Positions 1-32,335 are shown, counted from the stretch's first letter. The stretch is 34,485 bases of DNA from a virus (IMGVR_UViG_2531839587_000015), one strand, 5' to 3'. Program-made: numbers and translations. Notes: generated by a model from the letters alone, not told the origin.

Positions 1-54
1 TTAAAATCCCTCGGCGTTCGCGCTGTGCGGGTTCAAGTCCCGCTCCGGGTACCA
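1..54 (+). tRNA. leuZ: 3' portion of tRNA-Leu(UAA), truncated by window start (anticodon loop, long variable arm, T-arm, CCA end)
   Basis: Sequence ttaaaatccctcggcgttcgcgctgtgcgggttcaagtcccgctccgggtacca matches the recalled 3' end of E. coli tRNA-Leu(UAA): T-arm GCGGG/CCCGC, GGTTCAAGTCC T-loop, terminal ACCA. Confidence 0.8.
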
Positions 55-206
55 TGGGAAAGATAAGAATAAAATCAAAGCAATAAGCAGTGTCGTGAAA
101 CCACCTTCGGGGGGGTTTTTTGTATTTGTATTTTGTGCAATGGCGGTGGAGTGGCGATGGTGTGGCGATATGCAGAAACAATAGTAGTGCACGTGCTGTT
201 TAAACT

Positions 207-254
207 CTAAGGATGAAGCCGAATTCTCCTGCAGCTCCTCCGTATTTCGCATAG
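207..254 (-). pseudogene. Hok-family toxin remnant: only the C-terminal ...LCEIR... codons remain; about 130 nt including the start codon are missing relative to the copy at 1067-1207
   Basis: Minus-strand translation gives LCEIRRSCRRIRLHP*. Flanking DNA aligns with the 3' end of the intact hok at 1100-1140, and the adjacent leader (255-365) aligns with 1255-1380. Confidence 0.5.
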
Positions 255-365
255 TGAACTAGGACCTCGGTTAAACAAAAATTTTTCTGGGATTTTTCCA
301 CTCGACTTCATTTTTCCTCCTGCCATCCACCAAAAGGTACCTGCGCTAATCTGTCTTTTTTAATC
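255..365 (-). repeat. hok/sok-like leader region, copy A (homologous to 1255-1380)
   Basis: Shared blocks cctcggttaaaca, tttccac, cctcc..ccatc..cc.aaagg.acc..cgc.taatct...tttttt with the region upstream of the intact hok ORF. Confidence 0.55.
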
Positions 366-593
366 TGACAACATCCTGAGAAAAGGCAAAATCGTCAGAT
401 TTACTGTTTTTCTGCTGCCTCGAATGCCGATGTCTGCAGCACTGATAAGAGCTCTATCTCTTTGATATAGATCTTTTTTTTGATGAATTGCACGGCATAT
501 TATCGTTATGACACCTTCTTGTTAAAGGTGTTGTACTCCACATCTCGATTTTATGATGTGGGTTATGATTGGTTAGTAATAGAGTGTATCGGT

Positions 594-875
594 ATGCGAT
601 GTGGTTTATTAATGGCAATCTGTTTTTGTTTGGTATCTTTTAGTGGGTATGCAGCAACAGGAAAGTCTGATGCTCAGATCAAGAAAGAAATAATTAAAGA
701 ATCCATTGAATCGTATCCAGGCAATTGTGCGTGTCCTTATAATCATGCAAGGAATGGTAGTAGATGTGGTAGACGCAGTGCATATAGCCGTACTGGAGGG
801 TATGACGTGGTATGTTATGAGAGTGATGTTACGGATGAAATGATCCGGCAATGGAAGCAGGAGAATGCTGAGTAA
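594..875 (+). CDS. Small secreted Cys-rich protein (signal peptide MRCGLLMAICFCLVSFSGYAA; motif CACPYNHARNGSRCGRRSAY resembling YHYH-type proteins); AT-rich gene
   Basis: ORF 480-875 in the track. An internal Met at 594 begins a typical signal peptide; the 38 residues before it look non-native. Low-GC coding sequence. Confidence 0.55.
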   Translation: MRCGLLMAICFCLVSFSGYAATGKSDAQIKKEIIKESIESYPGNCACPYNHARNGSRCGRRSAYSRTGGYDVVCYESDVTDEMIRQWKQENAE

Positions 876-952
876 TCACTTTTAACTGGTTTGTTTTGCG
901 AGCATTATGTGTGTTGTTAACGGTACCCTAGCTAAGTGAGAGCTCCAAAAGA

Positions 953-985
953 AAACCCGCAGTTTTTACGCTGCGGGTTTTCTTG
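953..985. terminator. Bidirectional rho-independent terminator (cccgcag / ctgcggg stem flanked by A-run and T-run)
   Basis: Hairpin aaaacccgcag-tttttacg-ctgcgggttttc lies between the convergent + strand gene ending at 875 and the - strand hok ending at 1067. Confidence 0.65.
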
Positions 986-1066
986 TTTGTGTCCATGGGA
1001 TAGGGTGCCACTTCGGCCAGCCTTAGCAACCGATTGACGGGGGATTGCTCCCCCGTCGCGGTTTCC

Positions 1067-1207
1067 TTACTGCTTACACTGTAAGAACGCCGCAAACTCC
1101 GCTCCCCAGAAGCTCATCCGTATTTCACACAGCGAACCGTGCAGCATCCAGATGATGAGGATTACCGTCACGCAGAACGTGATGGCCATAAGCGATTTTT
1201 GCGACAT
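1067..1207 (-). CDS. Hok/Gef-family type I toxin, 46 aa (MSQKSLMAITFCVTVILIIWMLHGSLCEIRMSFWGAEFAAFLQCKQ)
   Basis: Own translation; absent from the ORF track because it is under 60 aa. Single TM helix plus the conserved SLCE(I/L)R and AAFLxCK motifs of HokA-like toxins. AAGGAG Shine-Dalgarno 10 nt upstream. Confidence 0.75.
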   Translation of the reverse strand: MSQKSLMAITFCVTVILIIWMLHGSLCEIRMSFWGAEFAAFLQCKQ

Positions 1208-1254
1208 AGCGCTTGCTCCTTTTTTGGGGAGGCGCTAACCTATCACTTGCTAAG

Positions 1255-1385
1255 GTTAGATGGTCAGGGCCTCGGTTAAACAGAAATGTTTTCCGGGGCC
1301 TTTCCACATCTGGCCTTCGGGTATTCCCTCCAGCCATCAGCCGAAAGGCACCCGCGCGTAATCTATCGCTTTTTTGTTACTCCGG
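1255..1385 (-). repeat. hok/sok-like leader region, copy B (mok/sok/translational-activation region upstream of intact hok)
   Basis: Homologous to 255-365. The SD region is embedded in a GC-rich pairing context typical of hok mRNAs. Confidence 0.5.
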
Positions 1386-1397
1386 CAATTCAGCCTG

Positions 1398-1658
1398 TTA
1401 ATTCTGAGGTAAGGGCAAACTCATTTGGTTGTTTCCCCTGTGCGAAGCTGGCAGCTCATTCCACGGGATGCCCTCTGAAGAGTGAACGCCTGGGGCGTGT
1501 TTCGATGTGAATTTATGGAAAGCCTCCAGTGTTGAGAAGCATACGCCGCATTCCAGGTTGTTACACTGGTAATATTTTTTCCGCACGGTATCTGAATCAT
1601 TTTCCGAACGACTGGTGCGGATACGGGCAGATGCGCCACAAAGCGGACAACGAAACAT
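1398..1658 (-). CDS. ogr: Ogr-like zinc-finger late-gene transcription activator
   Basis: MFRCPLCGASARIRTSR...YYQCNNLECGVCF shows the CxxC...CxxxxC pattern and N-terminal similarity to P2 Ogr. GGGAGG SD 5 nt upstream of the ATG. Confidence 0.85.
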   Translation of the reverse strand: MFRCPLCGASARIRTSRSENDSDTVRKKYYQCNNLECGVCFSTLEAFHKFTSKHAPGVHSSEGIPWNELPASHRGNNQMSLPLPQN

Positions 1659-1761
1659 AGCGACCTCCCTTAACGTAGTACTGTCGCTAGTTTAGGCTGA
1701 ACTTACTCAGACTCCAACTGATAGTTCGCTTTGTTTACTGATGCCGTAGAAAGGTCTCTTA

Positions 1762-1792
1762 GCAAGAATAACCCCAGTTTAACACTGGGGTT
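1762..1792 (-). terminator. Rho-independent terminator downstream of the moron gene (ccccagt / actgggg stem, U-run on the minus strand)
   Basis: Hairpin aaccccagtttaacactggggtt followed on the minus strand by uuauucuug. Confidence 0.6.
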
Positions 1793-1807
1793 GCTTGCAA
1801 CAGAGCG

Positions 1808-2461
1808 TCAATTTTTAAGAGCGCCGATACAGAAAAATTGCATGACATTTTTCTTTATTGATTTAAATAGGCTAAATATTGTGATAGGTCTAAAGCTAGT
1901 CAACTCGCTGAATTCTTTTCTCATTTGGGAAAGTAACTGCCGACGTACTGATTCAATTTCTGCTGTTTGAGCTCTCAAATATCTTGAGAAATCAAGTAGT
2001 TCATCAGCTGTTTTGTTTTGGCTATTTATAAACGTAACAGGTTGCCCTGGCTTAGATATGAGAAAGAATTGATCAATTTTATCAAGTAATGGTGGAATTA
2101 TTTGTTTCCATTCAGCCCATTCTTTTTCACGATGAAACTCCAGGCTGTGCTGACATGCTCTGAGTTGCTGTATATCAATCGCCCAGACCTCACTCTCATC
2201 GAGGCAATCTTTCCATTTGCTAATTACATTAATGTCAAATTTTTTGTTCGGTCGATAATCTTCTTTGGCGCGCGCTTCCAGTATAGAGGCAAGGCTACCT
2301 GTATATTGCATCAAATTGGTAGATGCTCGGTTTACTAGCTCAGATATTCGATCTAGTTGAGTTGTTCTAATCTCAAGTGCTTTCTTTTTACGTTCATTTC
2401 GTAAAGCAAAATATGCAGCAAGGCAGACTGCAGCAACTGTGGCTGCTGGTTGCATATTCAT
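1808..2461 (-). CDS. Moron: membrane-anchored hypothetical protein, 217 aa (N-terminal TM helix QPAATVAAVCLAAYFAL + KKK, then a soluble alpha-rich domain); AT-rich
   Basis: ORF 1808-2485 in the track. Start placed at the Met at 2461, which has an AGGA SD 8 nt upstream. Lies between ogr and D, where P2 has no gene. GC clearly lower than the flanking phage genes. Confidence 0.6.
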   Translation of the reverse strand: MNMQPAATVAAVCLAAYFALRNERKKKALEIRTTQLDRISELVNRASTNLMQYTGSLASILEARAKEDYRPNKKFDINVISKWKDCLDESEVWAIDIQQLRACQHSLEFHREKEWAEWKQIIPPLLDKIDQFFLISKPGQPVTFINSQNKTADELLDFSRYLRAQTAEIESVRRQLLSQMRKEFSELTSFRPITIFSLFKSIKKNVMQFFCIGALKN

Positions 2462-2655
2462 AACATGGATCCTCTGACATGGCATTTATGGGCGCTATTT
2501 CAGCAGTAATCATTTGTGTGTAAATTTGTTTGCTACAAATTAACATATTCTAATGTAAGGTACTTCTGATTTTGACACTTGGTAGGCTGTCAGATTGGTT
2601 ATGATTCTTGCTGTAGGCGCGTTAACAAATGTCAGGGCTAATGCATCTAAGTTGT

Positions 2656-3753
2656 TTACTCTGTTTCTGCTATCCATTCCGGGATTTTTGCTTCAAGCTC
2701 AAGCTGAGTGGTAAAGCCGCTGTTGTCAATGGTGTGCTCGGCTTTTGCAATAATCCAGTCCTGATTGTCAATGTCACTTTTGAAGCCTGTCACCGTGCCA
2801 TGCATTTCGGGATAGAGTTCTGCACGTCCACACGCCAGCGTGATGGAGAACGCTGCGGCTCCGCGTTGTAGCTGCTGCCACTTTGCCGCCGCTGCACGTC
2901 TTGCTGCCTGCTCGTTCTGATAAGTCTTGCGTAACACAAACACGTTGCCTTCCGCGCCTTCCATATAGTCGCCTTCCCGGCTGCTGCTTTTCTCCTTTTT
3001 CGGTTTGCGGCGTTTCACGCTGACTTTTTTCTTTTTCCCGTAATTAAGATCAAGCCAGTAGGCGCGTACACCCGTATACGCCTCGCGGTCAGCAATGCGG
3101 AACTGATGGCGATCGCCGCTGCTGCGTGTGATGGCAACGATGGCAAGGCTGGCCCTGTGCGTTCACGCCACCGCCGGCATGATGAATAACAGATTACCGC
3201 TTTTTACCGTGGTGATTGCGCCCAGCATTTCCGCCATGCGCGTAAGGAAGGACATGTCGCTTTCTTCAGTCTGGTCGGCGTGGTCGATTTCGATATCCAT
3301 CAGCATTTCGCTGATTTGCGGTTTCAGACCATACCGATGAGCGATGGCGGATACCACACGCTCAATGGTCACATCATGCCAGGACACCTCACGTTTAACG
3401 TTAAATTCATCCCGAAAATCTGCGCTTCTGGCTGAAACAGTCAGCCTGTCCGGCGGTCCTTCGTGAGCGATTTCATCAACAATGTAAGTGCCTTTTTCTG
3501 TCAGCGGTTCTCCTTTCCAGCCAATGAGAACCGTCAGGCGCGCGCCCCGTGGCGGTAGCTGCAACTGACCATCCGCATCATCCAGCGTGATGGTGAGCTG
3601 GTCCGCTTCAAATCCCCGGTTGTCGGTCAGTGACAGGCTCATCAGGCGCTCTGCCACGCCGGACAGCGTTTTCCCCTCCGCGAGAATATCAAAATCCGGC
3701 ATTTTCACGGGGTCTGTGCTCTGACTGAGCAATTGCATGGTGGTGTCGGTCAT
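2656..3753 (-). pseudogene. D: gpD tail protein (P2 D homolog) interrupted by a single in-frame TGA at 3163-3165
   Basis: Track ORFs 3163-3774 and 2656-3018 are in the same frame. The stretch between them translates without stops (THRASLAIVAITRSSGDRHQFRIADREAYTGV...) and matches gpD on both sides. Start placed at the Met at 3753 with a GGGAGGG SD. Confidence 0.8.
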
Positions 3754-3909
3754 CTTTCCCTCCCTGTGCGGCATGGTCGCATGTGCGTGCGGAGGGGGTT
3801 ACTGCTTTTTGTTGTCGCCGTGGCGGGAGAACGGCGCAGGGGTGAGATTACGCGCGTGGTGGGTGATGATTGTTGCCGAATCATTTAACGGATACAAGGG
3901 GCTGAAGCT

Positions 3910-5087
3910 ATGAGTGAAACTCGTTTTCATGGTGCCCGTGTTACGGAAATACCGACCTGGTAACAGCGATTAAGATGTTGATTCCAGGTTATCGGTATCG
4001 TGGCAACGGCGGATGATGCGGAGCGAGCTGTTCCCGCTGAACAAGCCCACACTGCTGACCCGCGTCAATGACGTGCTGGGAAAATGCGGACAACGGGACG
4101 CTTTATCGTGCGCTTAAGGCCATCGCAGACCAGGTGAGCACAAAGGTGATCGTCGTTCGCGTGGCTGAACACAAAGAAGAAGACGGAAAGACGCAGGATC
4201 AACTGGTTATCGGTGGTTCTGAGGATGACGGCAGCTATACGGGGATGTATGCGCTGCTTGTTGCAGAGCAGGATGAAAGCATCGGATACCGTCCGCGTAT
4301 TCTGGCCGCGCCGGAGCTGGACACGGAGGCGGTAACAAAATCCCTGTGCGTGATTGCGGGTAAACTGCGCGCGTTTGTGTATGCCTCATGTCACGGCTGT
4401 AACACGATGGCTGAGGCGATTACCTACCGCCAGAAATTCAACGAACGTGAGGTGATGCTCTTATGGCCGGACTTCATCGCCTACAACCCGAAAAGTGGCA
4501 AAAACGAAACGTTCCCCGCGCCTGCCTATGCGTGCGGCCTTCGTGCGTACATTGACCATGAGCAGGGCTGGCACAAATCGCTGTCCAACGTTCCGGTTAA
4601 AAATGTGCTGGGGATGTCCAGGCATGTGTTCTGGTCGTTGCAGGCCGAAGACAGTGATGCCAACAGCCTCAACAACAAAGAAATCACGACCATTATTCGT
4701 CGCAATGGGTTCCGCTTCTGGGGCAACCGCACACCGGAAACGAACGCCTACATCTTTGAGGTGTATACCCGAACCGCACAGGTGCTGGCTGATTCAATTG
4801 CGGAAGCGCAGTTTGAAACCATCGACAGTCCACTGACGCCTGCGAACGTGAAAGATGTTATCAGTGCCATCAGGGCAAAACTGGATTCACTGGTTACTGC
4901 CGGGAAACTGATTGGGGCGTCGTGCTGGTATGACGTGGTGGATAACGGCACCACGAATTTACGTCAGGGGCGCGTGCGTATTCGCTACAAATATACGCCT
5001 GTTCCCCCGCTGGAAGACATGGAGCTTTACCAGTCGTTTACTGATGAATTCTTTGGTCCCGCATTTGCGGTGCTGGGAGGTGCCTGA
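3910..5087 (+). pseudogene. FI: gpFI tail sheath; the first ~175 bp are broken by stops and at least two +1 indels; intact sheath frame from about 4083 to 5087
   Basis: ATG at 3910 with an AAGGGG SD encodes MSETRFHGARVTEI and then hits TAA at 3961. Sheath-like segments IGIVATADDAE, ELFPLNKPTLLTRVNDVLGK and NADNGTLYRALKAIADQ lie in three different frames. Downstream 335 aa match the P2 sheath. Confidence 0.8.
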
Positions 5088-31131: not shown

Positions 31132-31331
31132 CTGCGTGACTCCTGTACCTGTCGGATAAGGTTCACCCGCACCACATTCGTGGCGCAGAAGTAAGTGCCG
31201 TCAGTGAGATAGATGTGATGTGCATCCTTTTCCGAACGATGTTTGTCGATAGTGGTAATCAGTCGTTCGTCGACCTCGTATTCGCGGTCTCTGGAGGTGA
31301 AGCGAACGACAGGAAAATGCTTAATTGCCAT
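31128..31331 (-). CDS. Hypothetical protein (67 aa)
   Basis: ORF overlapping its neighbours by 4 nt, suggesting translational coupling. Confidence 0.45.
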   Translation of the reverse strand: MAIKHFPVVRFTSRDREYEVDERLITTIDKHRSEKDAHHIYLTDGTYFCATNVVRVNLIRQVQESRR

Positions 31332-31648
31332 TACACCCTCTTGGCTTTATGTCTGTATTTGAGCTTTTCTATTTCTTCTTTTTGTTCTTTTAATGTTCTT
31401 ATGGCTGTGAAAACATTAAAGCCCATAAAATGTGCTCTGTTCGCTAATGTAATACTGGCACCTTTGTTAGCTATATCATCTTCAATATCAGTGAAATACT
31501 GACTGATTTCTTTTAGTGCGGCGCAAAGCTTTGCGAGATCTCGCCCCCTGTCAAAATATGCATCCTTCAGTATTTTTTGATTTGTCCTGAGCATGCTAAC
31601 CTCGTGTTTATATATATGGATACCTCCGCGAGTGCGGATTGTTTTCAT
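31331..31648 (-). CDS. Hypothetical protein (105 aa) with basic C-terminus, in an AT-rich insert
   Basis: ORF. Markedly AT-rich DNA compared with the neighbouring genes. Confidence 0.5.
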   Translation of the reverse strand: MKTIRTRGGIHIYKHEVSMLRTNQKILKDAYFDRGRDLAKLCAALKEISQYFTDIEDDIANKGASITLANRAHFMGFNVFTAIRTLKEQKEEIEKLKYRHKAKRV

Positions 31649-31683
31649 GTTTTCTTATTTAATCGTGTGTTTTATTTGTGCTG

Positions 31684-31797
31684 TTATTCTTCAGTGAAAA
31701 AACGCTCAATCTTTTTTACTGAATGAATAATTCGCATAATCCCAATAGCGCAGGCCACCGAAATAATCAGAACAAGCCATGAGATAAATATACTCAT
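31684..31797 (-). CDS. 37-aa single-TM membrane peptide (MSIFISWLVLIISVACAIGIMRIIHSVKKIERFFTEE), not in the ORF track
   Basis: Own translation. ATG overlaps the stop of the upstream 81-aa gene (ATGA). GGGGAA SD-like sequence upstream. AT-rich. Confidence 0.5.
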   Translation of the reverse strand: MSIFISWLVLIISVACAIGIMRIIHSVKKIERFFTEE

Positions 31798-32039
31798 GCG
31801 ATATTCCCCAGCTTATACGGTTCAATATGTTCCCCGCATTCTGCGGCACAGATCAGCTCGGAAAGTTCGTTAAGTGCATCCAGATCATCAGCGTAAAAAG
31901 CCACGTCATACAGACTTCGGATTGCTCTGGTCAATGAGTCACGGGCCGCACGTTCAGCATGAGCGCCTGATGCACTTAAGCGAAAATAAAAACGCTCAAG
32001 TGCTTTGTTAATGAGAGTTTTATATTCTTTGCCCATCAC
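31794..32039 (-). CDS. Hypothetical protein (81 aa)
   Basis: ORF. Its stop overlaps the start of the 37-aa peptide gene. Confidence 0.5.
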   Translation of the reverse strand: MMGKEYKTLINKALERFYFRLSASGAHAERAARDSLTRAIRSLYDVAFYADDLDALNELSELICAAECGEHIEPYKLGNIA

Positions 32040-32047
32040 AACGCCCT

Positions 32048-32335
32048 TTAATCTGCTTTCTGTATTTCAGCTTCTGAATCCATACAAATAATTTCGATAT
32101 AGGGTTCATCGCCATTAACCTGGCGTGCCTTTTCAGCTTCGCTAATGATTTCTCGTACGGTCTGGTACGGAAGTTCCACAAGCAGCCGTGTGCCGTTCAG
32201 ATAAATGTAAGTGGCTTCAGCGGCTCCGTTTTTACCCGCCGGAGTCACTCCATCAATAGCGGATACGCGTAATAACAGTTCACCGCGAAAATCAATAAAA
32301 CGGATAAATACACCTTGTGCATGCTCTTTGGTCAT
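32048..32335 (-). CDS. Hypothetical early protein (95 aa from the internal Met MTKEHAQGVF...)
   Basis: Track ORF 32048-32395. Start placed at the Met with an AGGTG SD, which avoids overlap with the upstream gene. Confidence 0.45.
   Translation of the reverse strand: MTKEHAQGVFIRFIDFRGELLLRVSAIDGVTPAGKNGAAEATYIYLNGTRLLVELPYQTVREIISEAEKARQVNGDEPYIEIICMDSEAEIQKAD

What the first reader, a model, noticed from the sequence alone, without database searches (positions are those of the whole stretch)
1660..2655. AT-rich moron between ogr and D encoding a membrane-anchored 217-aa protein
P2 has no gene between D and ogr. Here there is a low-GC insert with its own RBS and terminator, encoding a protein with one N-terminal TM helix followed by KKK and an alpha-helical cytoplasmic domain with no motif I recognise. 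Membrane-anchored single-gene morons in prophages are often superinfection-exclusion or abortive-infection factors. Compositional contrast and autonomous expression signals suggest lysogenic-conversion cargo of unknown function.
Basis: partly seen in the sequence, partly recalled or inferred. Interest (0 to 1): 0.65.

Follow-up and report, generated by a model that had tools for sequence, protein, structure and literature searches.

The report
Unknown membrane-anchored cargo gene in prophage hotspot
A P2-type prophage of E. coli carries, between its tail gene D and its late activator ogr, a single foreign gene for a small membrane-tethered helical protein of unknown function; other related prophages hold known or candidate anti-phage genes at exactly this spot, so it is a reasonable but untested candidate for a new phage-defence gene.

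Summary
Window 1660-2655 is a 39% GC stretch in a 53% GC P88-like (Xuanwuvirus) prophage. It lies between ogr (1398-1658, -) and D (stop at 2656, -). It holds one intact ORF, 1808-2461 (-), 217 aa, with an AGAGGA ribosome-binding site and a strong downstream hairpin.

The protein has a short N-terminal hydrophobic helix, a basic RNERKKK flank, a confidently predicted long helical bundle (pLDDT 86) and an amphipathic C-terminal helix. No Pfam, NCBIfam, PHROG, PADLOC or PDB relative was found. The family is tiny (23 clusters at 50% identity among 1.8 billion proteins). All members whose source organism is named are Enterobacterales.

Most P88-like prophages have D and ogr 42 nt apart. Others carry alternative single genes at the same junction: bSEFIR, PDC-S31/DUF2971, a PIN protein, a weakly HEPN-like protein, or unknowns. 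Distant homologues sit in lambdoid prophages, ICEs, plasmids and defence islands, with no constant partner gene.

Best reading: hotspot cargo, probably an anti-phage factor acting at the inner membrane. Function and mechanism are inferred, not shown. Interest is moderate.

The parts
1808..2461 (-). Cargo ORF, 217 aa (WP_096954265.1): N-terminal hydrophobic anchor (residues about 5-20), RNERKKK flank, helical bundle (about 30-190), amphipathic C-terminal helix (195-215)
   Evidence: ORF and translation. RefSeq annotation in an identical genome. AlphaFold2 pLDDT 86, pTM 0.71. dN/dS 0.25 against the Kluyvera copy.
2467..2475 (-). Shine-Dalgarno region (AGAGGA) about 8 nt upstream of ATG 2461
   Evidence: Read from the sequence. 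Conserved in the Kluyvera copy.
2462..2655 (-). 194-nt upstream non-coding leader. Its first 55 nt or so after the D stop form the conserved left frame element of the hotspot (AACTTAGATGCATTAGCCCTGAC...CCTACAGCAAGAAT). It also contains the conserved block GAATATGTTAATTTGTAGCAAACAAAT with the inverted repeat ATTTGT-N5-ACAAAT.
   Evidence: About 190 nt upstream is conserved with the lambdoid-prophage copy in Kluyvera. The left element is shared by loci holding the PIN, 465-aa and 340-aa cargos, and only in part by the bSEFIR locus. No consensus promoter was found.
1770..1792 (-). Terminator-like hairpin 16 nt after the stop codon (AACCCCAGUguuaaACUGGGGUU, extended by GCAAG/CUUGC)
   Evidence: -26.7 kcal/mol, z -6.0. 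Not shared with the Kluyvera copy. The U-tract is imperfect.
1659..1715 (-). Right frame element of the hotspot, likely the ogr promoter: TTGGAG-N17-TAAACT, then AGCGACAG...GGGAGG-ATG(ogr). Other filled loci have TTGGAr-N17/18-TAGAAT.
   Evidence: Junction comparison of 10 loci. The position matches the annotated P2 ogr -10. Promoter function is inferred.
1398..1658 (-). ogr/Delta late-gene activator (flank)
2656..3774 (-). Tail gene D (flank). In this window it is interrupted by three 1-nt deletions around 3060-3110.

Best explanation
What it is. The region is the cargo of a variable single-gene hotspot at the D-ogr junction of P88-like (Xuanwuvirus) P2-family prophages. The cargo is one real, selected gene. 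Its protein is tethered to the inner membrane by a short N-terminal helix (N-terminus out, bulk in the cytoplasm). The helix runs straight into a long helical bundle, and the protein ends in an amphipathic helix.

Most likely role. It is a prophage-borne anti-phage factor acting at the cytoplasmic face of the inner membrane, on its own. It would resemble the lactococcal single-protein AbiP/AbiC systems. In this model the bundle (conserved LEFHR-x6-W patch) recognises a phage component, and the membrane-associated helices then halt infection by disturbing the membrane or blocking an early step.

Shown: the gene, the hotspot, the fold class, the mobility of the family and purifying selection.

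Inferred: membrane topology, expression in the lysogen, the defence role and every step of the mechanism.
For: Hotspot
- P88 and P88_4B11 have D and ogr 42 nt apart, and Chuche's annotation shows the same spacing.
- Sister prophages carry other single genes at the same nucleotides:
  - bSEFIR/TIR, PADLOC E = 1e-43
  - DUF2971 = PDC-S31, E = 6e-27
  - a PIN_4 protein of 500 aa
  - a weakly HEPN-like 340-aa protein, below Pfam's cut-off
  - a 465-aa unknown
- The boundary sequences are shared, in whole or in part, by all the filled sites compared.

Real gene
- Intact 217/221-aa forms occur on thousands of contigs.
- dN/dS is 0.25 against Kluyvera.
- The AlphaFold2 model is confident (pLDDT 86).

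Mobility and neighbourhood of the family
- Two lambdoid prophages.
- Two ICEs.
- Rep3 plasmids.
- An island next to smpB with a KAP NTPase.
- A cysH island and a plasmid, both beside SMODS+S_4TM and near TIR, nSTAND or RES genes.
- DUF4238/DUF4145 neighbours, an AAA_13 neighbour, and a CP4-57-like island.
- No partner gene is constant across these contexts.

Topology
- K+R count is 1.0 on the N-terminal flank against 4.8 on the C-terminal flank, averaged over 35 members.
- The C-terminal helix is amphipathic (muH 0.5-0.8).

Architecture precedent
- AbiP has an N-terminal TM helix plus an extramembrane domain and works as a single gene (PMC13064643).
Against: - There is no sequence or fold link to any known defence, exclusion or toxin family. 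The fold matches are generic helical bundles.
- No enzymatic motif or recognisable effector domain is present.
- One homologue (Erwinia piriflorinigrans) lies among ordinary metabolic and fimbrial genes.
- The window allele has a shortened hydrophobic helix and might anchor poorly.
- No consensus promoter was found, and no expression data could be examined.
- Location in a hotspot is guilt by association. Such sites also carry non-defence cargo.
Confidence: 0.5

Rival explanations
1. Classical superinfection exclusion. The inner-membrane protein blocks genome entry of incoming phages (as with T4 Imm, P22 SieA, HK97 gp15 or lactococcal Sie2009) without killing the cell.
For: It is prophage-borne, small, N-terminally anchored and sits at the membrane. 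It is a single gene with no effector domain.
Against: The family also occurs on plasmids, ICEs and chromosomal defence islands. That spread is unusual for entry blockers tuned to one phage's injection machinery. Most of the protein is predicted to be cytoplasmic. There is no homology to any Sie family.
Confidence: 0.2
2. Cargo unrelated to phage defence, for example a factor serving the mobile element (conjugative entry exclusion, plasmid or ICE maintenance, anti-defence) or a host-physiology, envelope-stress or virulence modifier.
For: Homologues sit directly after a Rep3 replication gene, inside an ICE transfer module between traC and traU, and in a non-mobile chromosomal context in Erwinia. 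The bundle resembles sensor and ligand-binding bundles of membrane receptors (NarQ, MCP, QseE).
Against: The same hotspot carries recognised defence genes in sister phages. Most homologue neighbourhoods are rich in defence genes. No output domain is present that a signalling protein would need.
Confidence: 0.25
3. Decaying or functionless hitch-hiker. The ORF would be a remnant carried along in a degraded prophage.
For: In this window D and the sheath gene contain several 1-nt deletions. The window allele lacks 4 residues of the anchor helix. Some genomes have IS1 in the locus.
Against: The ORF is intact and 100% identical in other genomes. This exact allele is on 222 contigs. dN/dS is 0.25-0.5. 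The coevolution signal is strong enough to give a pLDDT 86 model. The deletions in D and the sheath gene look like assembly errors, because all are 1-nt deletions and they are absent from 510016, E2348/69 and P88 (D) and from P88 (sheath).
Confidence: 0.05

Closest known systems
Lactococcal AbiP / AbiC (single-gene abortive-infection proteins)
   Same: Similar size (about 220-250 aa), acts as a single gene, has N-terminal transmembrane helix(es) followed by one extramembrane domain with no assignable function, and is carried on mobile DNA (PMC13064643).
   Different: No detectable sequence similarity: no AbiC hit in PADLOC and no Abi_C hit in Pfam. The host phylum differs. AbiP binds nucleic acids, whereas net charge in this family ranges from -4 to +9. 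No phenotype is known for this protein.
Cargo hotspots of P2-like prophages (old/tin, Z/fun, and the 'tail protein to CI' hotspot)
   Same: Variable, low-GC accessory genes sit between conserved core genes and often include defence systems (PMC9122126; bioRxiv 10.1101/2024.10.15.618418; PMC13586616).
   Different: This junction (D-ogr, in P88-like phages) is not one of the two classical P2 hotspots. It holds single genes only, within conserved frame elements about 45-55 nt long, and the right-hand element apparently supplies the ogr promoter. It may be the third hotspot mentioned in the iLund4u preprint, but the papers read do not describe it at this resolution.
Four-helix-bundle sensor domains joined to a TM helix (NarQ/NarX, Tar/MCP 4HB, QseE, NasR NIT)
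   Different: Those bundles are periplasmic, are followed by a second TM helix and carry output domains. Here the bundle is predicted to be cytoplasmic and there is no second TM helix or output domain. Sequence identity is 4-13% and de novo designed bundles score as high, so the match is to a fold class, not a family.
Phage superinfection-exclusion membrane proteins (T4 Imm, P22 SieA/SieB, HK97 gp15, Sie2009)
   Same: Small prophage-encoded inner-membrane proteins that act alone (from general knowledge).
   Different: No Pfam hit (for example SieB) or PHROG hit. The family is not restricted to phages.

Membership tests
P2-family core genes (would refute the moron reading) | Homology to a conserved P2/P88 structural or regulatory protein, present at this position in relatives | tested here: not met
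   Absent from P2, P88, P88_4B11 and Chuche at this junction. No PHROG or Pfam match. Only 58 of 5426 complete E. coli genomes carry it, against about 770 with the full P88-type D-ogr-hok segment.
Known anti-phage defence families (PADLOC-DB v2.0.0, including AbiC, bSEFIR and PDC candidates) | Significant HMM match to a defence-system protein model | tested here: not met
   The best hit is E = 0.012, to a short REase_II stretch over the TM region. None of the 36 family members matches consistently.
Hotspot cargo (moron) of a P2-like prophage | Occupies a site that is empty or differently filled in close relatives, between conserved core genes | tested here: met
   The site is empty in P88 and P88_4B11. 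Elsewhere it holds bSEFIR, PDC-S31, PIN, a 340-aa, a 465-aa or this gene, with the boundaries at least partly conserved in every filled site compared.
Hotspot cargo (moron) of a P2-like prophage | Atypical base composition and its own translation and transcription signals | tested here: inconclusive
   GC is 39% against 53%, with a ribosome-binding site and a hairpin. No consensus promoter was found. A 190-nt leader travels with the ORF into a lambdoid prophage.
Single-pass (N-out, C-in) inner-membrane protein | Hydrophobic helix of about 19 residues or more with positive-inside charge bias | tested here: inconclusive
   Charge bias is clear (K+R 1.0 against 4.8). Relatives reach a Kyte-Doolittle 19-residue value of 1.4-2.15, but this allele reaches only 1.33 and has a 16-residue core. 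No dedicated TM predictor was available, and localisation cannot be tested here.
Pfam DUF4760 (the name one UniRef cluster gives an E. coli member) | Match to PF15956 at or above the gathering score | tested here: not met
   hmmscan at E <= 10 on four E. coli members and E <= 1 on 36 members does not list PF15956. The label appears. No profile-profile test was possible.
CBASS (as an accessory component) | Conserved operonic linkage to a SMODS cyclase and its effector | tested here: not met
   The gene is adjacent, with an intergenic gap of about 520-575 nt, in 2 of about 14 contexts only. It is absent from the window and from all other contexts.
Abortive infection or superinfection exclusion (functional class) | Protection of the host against phage, with or without cell death | not testable with these tools
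   This needs plaque, efficiency-of-plating and survival assays.

The most novel reading that the evidence does not exclude
The family is a previously unrecognised single-protein anti-phage system of Enterobacterales. It would be a cytoplasmic helical bundle hung from the inner membrane by one helix, shuttling as a promoter-plus-ORF cassette among P2-like and lambdoid prophages, ICEs, plasmids and defence islands. It would work without any known effector domain, for example by trigger-induced membrane perturbation. In addition, the D-ogr junction of P88-like phages would be a framed, cassette-like single-gene defence hotspot whose right border rebuilds the ogr promoter.
Probability: 0.4. Interest if true: 0.55.

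Novelty: new member of a known kind. Interest (0 to 1): 0.42.

Why it matters
If the protein does protect against phages, it adds a new, very small single-gene defence family with no recognisable effector. Such families are useful for learning how minimal membrane-tethered sensors stop infection.

The D-ogr junction of P88-like prophages is present in roughly a seventh of complete E. coli genomes. It would then be a convenient, sharply bounded place to mine single-gene defence candidates. The 465-aa, 340-aa and PIN cargos there are likewise absent from PADLOC.

If the protein does not protect, it is one more uncharacterised moron.

Tried and rejected
- **Profile searches of the protein.** Pfam, NCBIfam, PHROGs and PADLOC were searched, and Pfam, PADLOC and PHROGs also with all 36 family members. 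Nothing significant was found.
- **PDB sequence profile search.** Nothing.
- **First AlphaFold2 run with 5 close sequences.** Unusable, pLDDT 50. It was rescued by adding distant homologues from the exhaustive HMM search.
- **DUF4760 lead from a UniRef name.** Not reproduced.
- **Literature search by accession.** No paper.
- **Scan of species-representative genomes with the subfamily alignment.** Only one locus, in Erwinia.
- **CBASS linkage idea.** Rejected, because adjacency occurs in only 2 contexts and with a large gap.
- **Nucleic-acid binding by analogy with AbiP.** Not supported, because charge is not conserved.
- **Rfam scan of 1-3200.** No RNA family in the insert, only a sok-like RNA near hok.
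- **Manual promoter hunting in the 194-nt leader.** No arrangement is conserved between the E. coli and Kluyvera copies.

Full report
**1. What is in the sequence**

The window is a P2-family prophage lying against tRNA-Leu/pgsA DNA. The region of the finding is 100% identical to E. coli strains 510016 and EC130 and 99.2% identical to 'Escherichia phage 520873' (genus Xuanwuvirus, P88-like).

On the minus strand the order is:
- hok/gef (1067-1207), with a sok-like RNA at 1219-1353
- ogr (1398-1658)
- the ORF of the finding
- D, whose stop is at 2656

The sheath-tube-tape-measure operon runs the other way from about 3.9 kb.

The interval 1660-2655 has 39% GC against 53% for the window. It holds one long ORF, 1808-2485. 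The start supported by the AGAGGA Shine-Dalgarno sequence, by RefSeq and by the N-termini of all relatives is ATG 2461, giving 217 aa.

Sixteen nt after the stop codon there is a strong hairpin (-26.7 kcal/mol, z = -6). Its U-tract is poor.

P2 itself has only an 81-nt spacer between D and ogr, and that spacer holds the ogr promoter.

**2. It fills a framed hotspot**

In P88 and P88_4B11, D and ogr are 42 nt apart. The annotation of phage Chuche shows the same spacing.

A P88 probe spanning D-ogr-hok finds about 770 of 5426 complete E. coli genomes with the whole segment in one place. In a ranked, evenly spaced sample, 25 of 29 such loci were uninterrupted. The gene of the finding is in 58 genomes.

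Other prophages carry different single genes at the same junction:

| Cargo | Size | Recognised as |
|---|---|---|
| TIR/SEFIR protein | 302 aa | bSEFIR in PADLOC, E = 1e-43 |
| DUF2971 protein | 261 aa | candidate system PDC-S31 |
| PIN_4 protein (O111, O157:H7) | 500 aa | PIN domain only |
| Weakly HEPN-like protein (phage 500465-2) | 340 aa | RiboL-PSP HEPN, below Pfam cut-off |
| Unknown | 465 aa | none |
| IS element | - | - |

The cargos lie on either strand. The borders are nevertheless largely the same in all the filled sites compared:
- **Left border.** Directly after the D stop comes AACTTAGATGTATTAGCnCAGAC...CTTACAG.ATAGAA, about 55 nt. The bSEFIR locus keeps only the first part of it.
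- **Right border.** Directly before ogr comes GTTGGArT-N17/18-TAGAAT-AGCGACAG. The window reads TTGGAG-N17-TAAACT.

The TAGAAT hexamer lies 30 nt before the ogr ATG. That is about the position of the annotated -10 of the P2 ogr promoter. I therefore read the right border as the ogr promoter. This is an inference.

The empty sites keep AACTTAGAATAGC, which resembles both borders. That would fit loss and exchange of cargo by recombination between the borders, which is again an inference.

**3. The protein and its family**

No Pfam, NCBIfam, PHROG or PADLOC model matches. Word-indexed search of 5.8 billion proteins finds only near-identical Escherichia and Kluyvera proteins. An exhaustive profile search of 1.84 billion cluster representatives finds 23 clusters, 17 of them at E <= 1e-10. 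A second indexed search with the wider alignment finds 29 clusters. All are called 'hypothetical', and every one with a named source is from Escherichia, Klebsiella, Citrobacter, Salmonella, Kluyvera or Pseudescherichia. An Erwinia member turned up in a genome scan.

Members are 214-235 aa and share one architecture:
- a short acidic or neutral N-terminus
- a hydrophobic helix (consensus ITPxxTxxAVWLAAxFxL)
- a basic flank, RNExxKKxLE
- a helical domain with the most conserved motif L-E-F-H-R-x6-W (H110 and W118 are invariant)
- a cationic amphipathic C-terminal helix (muH 0.5-0.8)

K+R counts average 1.0 before the hydrophobic helix and 4.8 after it. By the positive-inside rule the bulk of the protein should be cytoplasmic.

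With the 36-sequence alignment AlphaFold2 gives pLDDT 86 and pTM 0.71. One continuous helix spans residues 4-67. This means the anchor runs straight into the first bundle helix. Further long helices span 97-132 and 152-188, and the last helix spans 195-215.

One UniRef cluster calls an E. coli member 'DUF4760 domain-containing'. I could not reproduce that match.

**4. Is it a live gene?**

- dN/dS is 0.25 between the E. coli and Kluyvera copies (dS 0.65-0.67). Between the window allele and the E2348/69 allele it is 0.5.
- Full-length 221-aa forms are recorded on more than 2,900 contigs.
- The exact 217-aa allele of the window is on 222 contigs. Short forms are rare.
- The window allele differs from all other family members by a 12-nt deletion that removes four residues (IFIA) of the hydrophobic helix. 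This lowers the Kyte-Doolittle 19-residue maximum from 2.15 to 1.33. Because the allele is widespread it is not an artefact, but its membrane anchoring is less certain.

**5. Where relatives live**

- The 73%-identical Kluyvera copy sits in the nin-like region of a lambdoid prophage. About 190 nt of upstream non-coding DNA came with it, including the left border element of the P88 hotspot. The hairpin did not.
- More distant members (20-40% identity) lie in these places:
  - another lambdoid prophage
  - an ICE beside hipA
  - an ICE transfer module between traC and traU
  - just after Rep3 replication genes on plasmids
  - an integrase island next to smpB with a KAP NTPase and an SMC-like ATPase
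  - a cysH-side island and a plasmid, both next to a SMODS+S_4TM pair and near nSTAND, TIR and RES genes
  - beside DUF4238/DUF4145 genes, beside an AAA_13 ATPase, and in a CP4-57-like island
- The Erwinia copy lies among metabolic and fimbrial genes.
- No neighbour is constant, so the gene acts alone.
- The SMODS adjacency occurs twice, with a gap of about 520-575 nt. I do not treat it as functional linkage.

**6. How it most likely works**

Shown:
- a selected, mobile, single-gene cassette
- placed in a hotspot that elsewhere carries recognised defence genes
- encoding a helical-bundle protein with an N-terminal hydrophobic helix

Inferred:
- it sits in the inner membrane with the bundle in the cytoplasm
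- it is expressed from its own leader in the lysogen
- it interferes with infecting phages

Because the family is as much at home on plasmids, ICEs and chromosomal islands as in prophages, I favour a general defence of the abortive-infection type over an injection block tuned to one phage type. The nearest precedent in architecture is lactococcal AbiP/AbiC: a single gene with N-terminal TM helix(es) and an extramembrane domain of unknown function (PMC13064643). There is no sequence relationship to it.

A concrete but speculative mechanism is that the conserved LEFHR/W patch binds a phage product, and oligomerisation of the anchor and amphipathic helices then perturbs the membrane.

Rivals:
- entry exclusion
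- a role unrelated to phage defence (serving the mobile element or altering host physiology)
- a decaying passenger, the least likely

**7. Comparison with what is known, and novelty**

Hotspots of accessory and defence genes in P2-like phages are well known: old/tin and Z/fun (PMC9122126), further minor hotspots (PMC13586616), and a 'tail protein to CI' hotspot (bioRxiv 10.1101/2024.10.15.618418).

The present case is a new, uncharacterised cargo family in such a hotspot. It is not a new kind of thing. The fine structure of the D-ogr junction (single-gene cargos, shared borders, rebuilt ogr promoter) was not described in the papers I could read.

Interest is moderate. It is a good candidate for a new minimal defence protein, but it is one of many unknown hotspot genes, and nothing in the sequence forces a surprising mechanism.

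Noticed in passing
window 1659-1715 and 2600-2655; loci L006, L018, L019, L033, L034, L035: The D-ogr junction of P88-like prophages is a single-gene cargo hotspot (bSEFIR, PDC-S31/DUF2971, PIN_4 500 aa, weakly HEPN-like 340 aa, unknown 465 aa, IS). Border elements are conserved: the left one is about 55 nt after the D stop, and the right one reads GTTGGArT-N17/18-TAGAAT before ogr, likely the ogr promoter. The PIN, 340-aa and 465-aa cargos have no PADLOC match and are themselves defence candidates.
   Followed up: partly
L015 6813-6860 (Kluyvera lambdoid prophage): The left border element of the P88 hotspot (ATGTATTAGCTCTCAC...CTCTTACG) also lies 188 nt upstream of the family gene in a lambdoid prophage. 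The cassette therefore seems to have moved from a P2-like into a lambdoid phage, or the reverse, taking hotspot frame DNA with it.
   Followed up: partly
window about 3060-3110 (gene D) and about 3910-4100 (5' part of the sheath gene): There are three single-base deletions in D and seven in the start of the sheath gene relative to P88; the D deletions are also absent from E2348/69 and 510016. They break both reading frames. All are 1-nt deletions and several are in homopolymers, which looks like long-read assembly error rather than real decay.
   Followed up: partly
window 1067-1207 (-) and 1219-1353 (-): A hok/gef-type toxin gene with a sok-like antisense RNA (Rfam RF01794, 45 bits, below the gathering score) lies between ogr and the prophage end, as in all P88-like phages examined.
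   Followed up: no
L010 9256-11199 and L024 8302-10233: Two distant family members sit about 520-575 nt upstream of a SMODS + S_4TM (CBASS-like) pair. The pair is 87% identical in DNA between a Pseudescherichia chromosome and a Klebsiella plasmid, while the family genes beside it are too diverged for blastn.
   Followed up: partly
window 23190-24310 and 31200-32100: Two other low-GC stretches (about 39-42% GC) occur in the prophage. The first is the classical cos-proximal hotspot, between the portal gene and a ParM-like gene. Here it is only about 1.1 kb and holds small ORFs, for example 23676-23945 (-), 89 aa. The second lies in the early-gene region.
   Followed up: no
window 2525-2541 (-): A perfect inverted repeat ATTTGT-N5-ACAAAT lies in the cargo leader, inside the block most conserved with the Kluyvera copy. 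It could be an operator, but nothing further is known.
   Followed up: no
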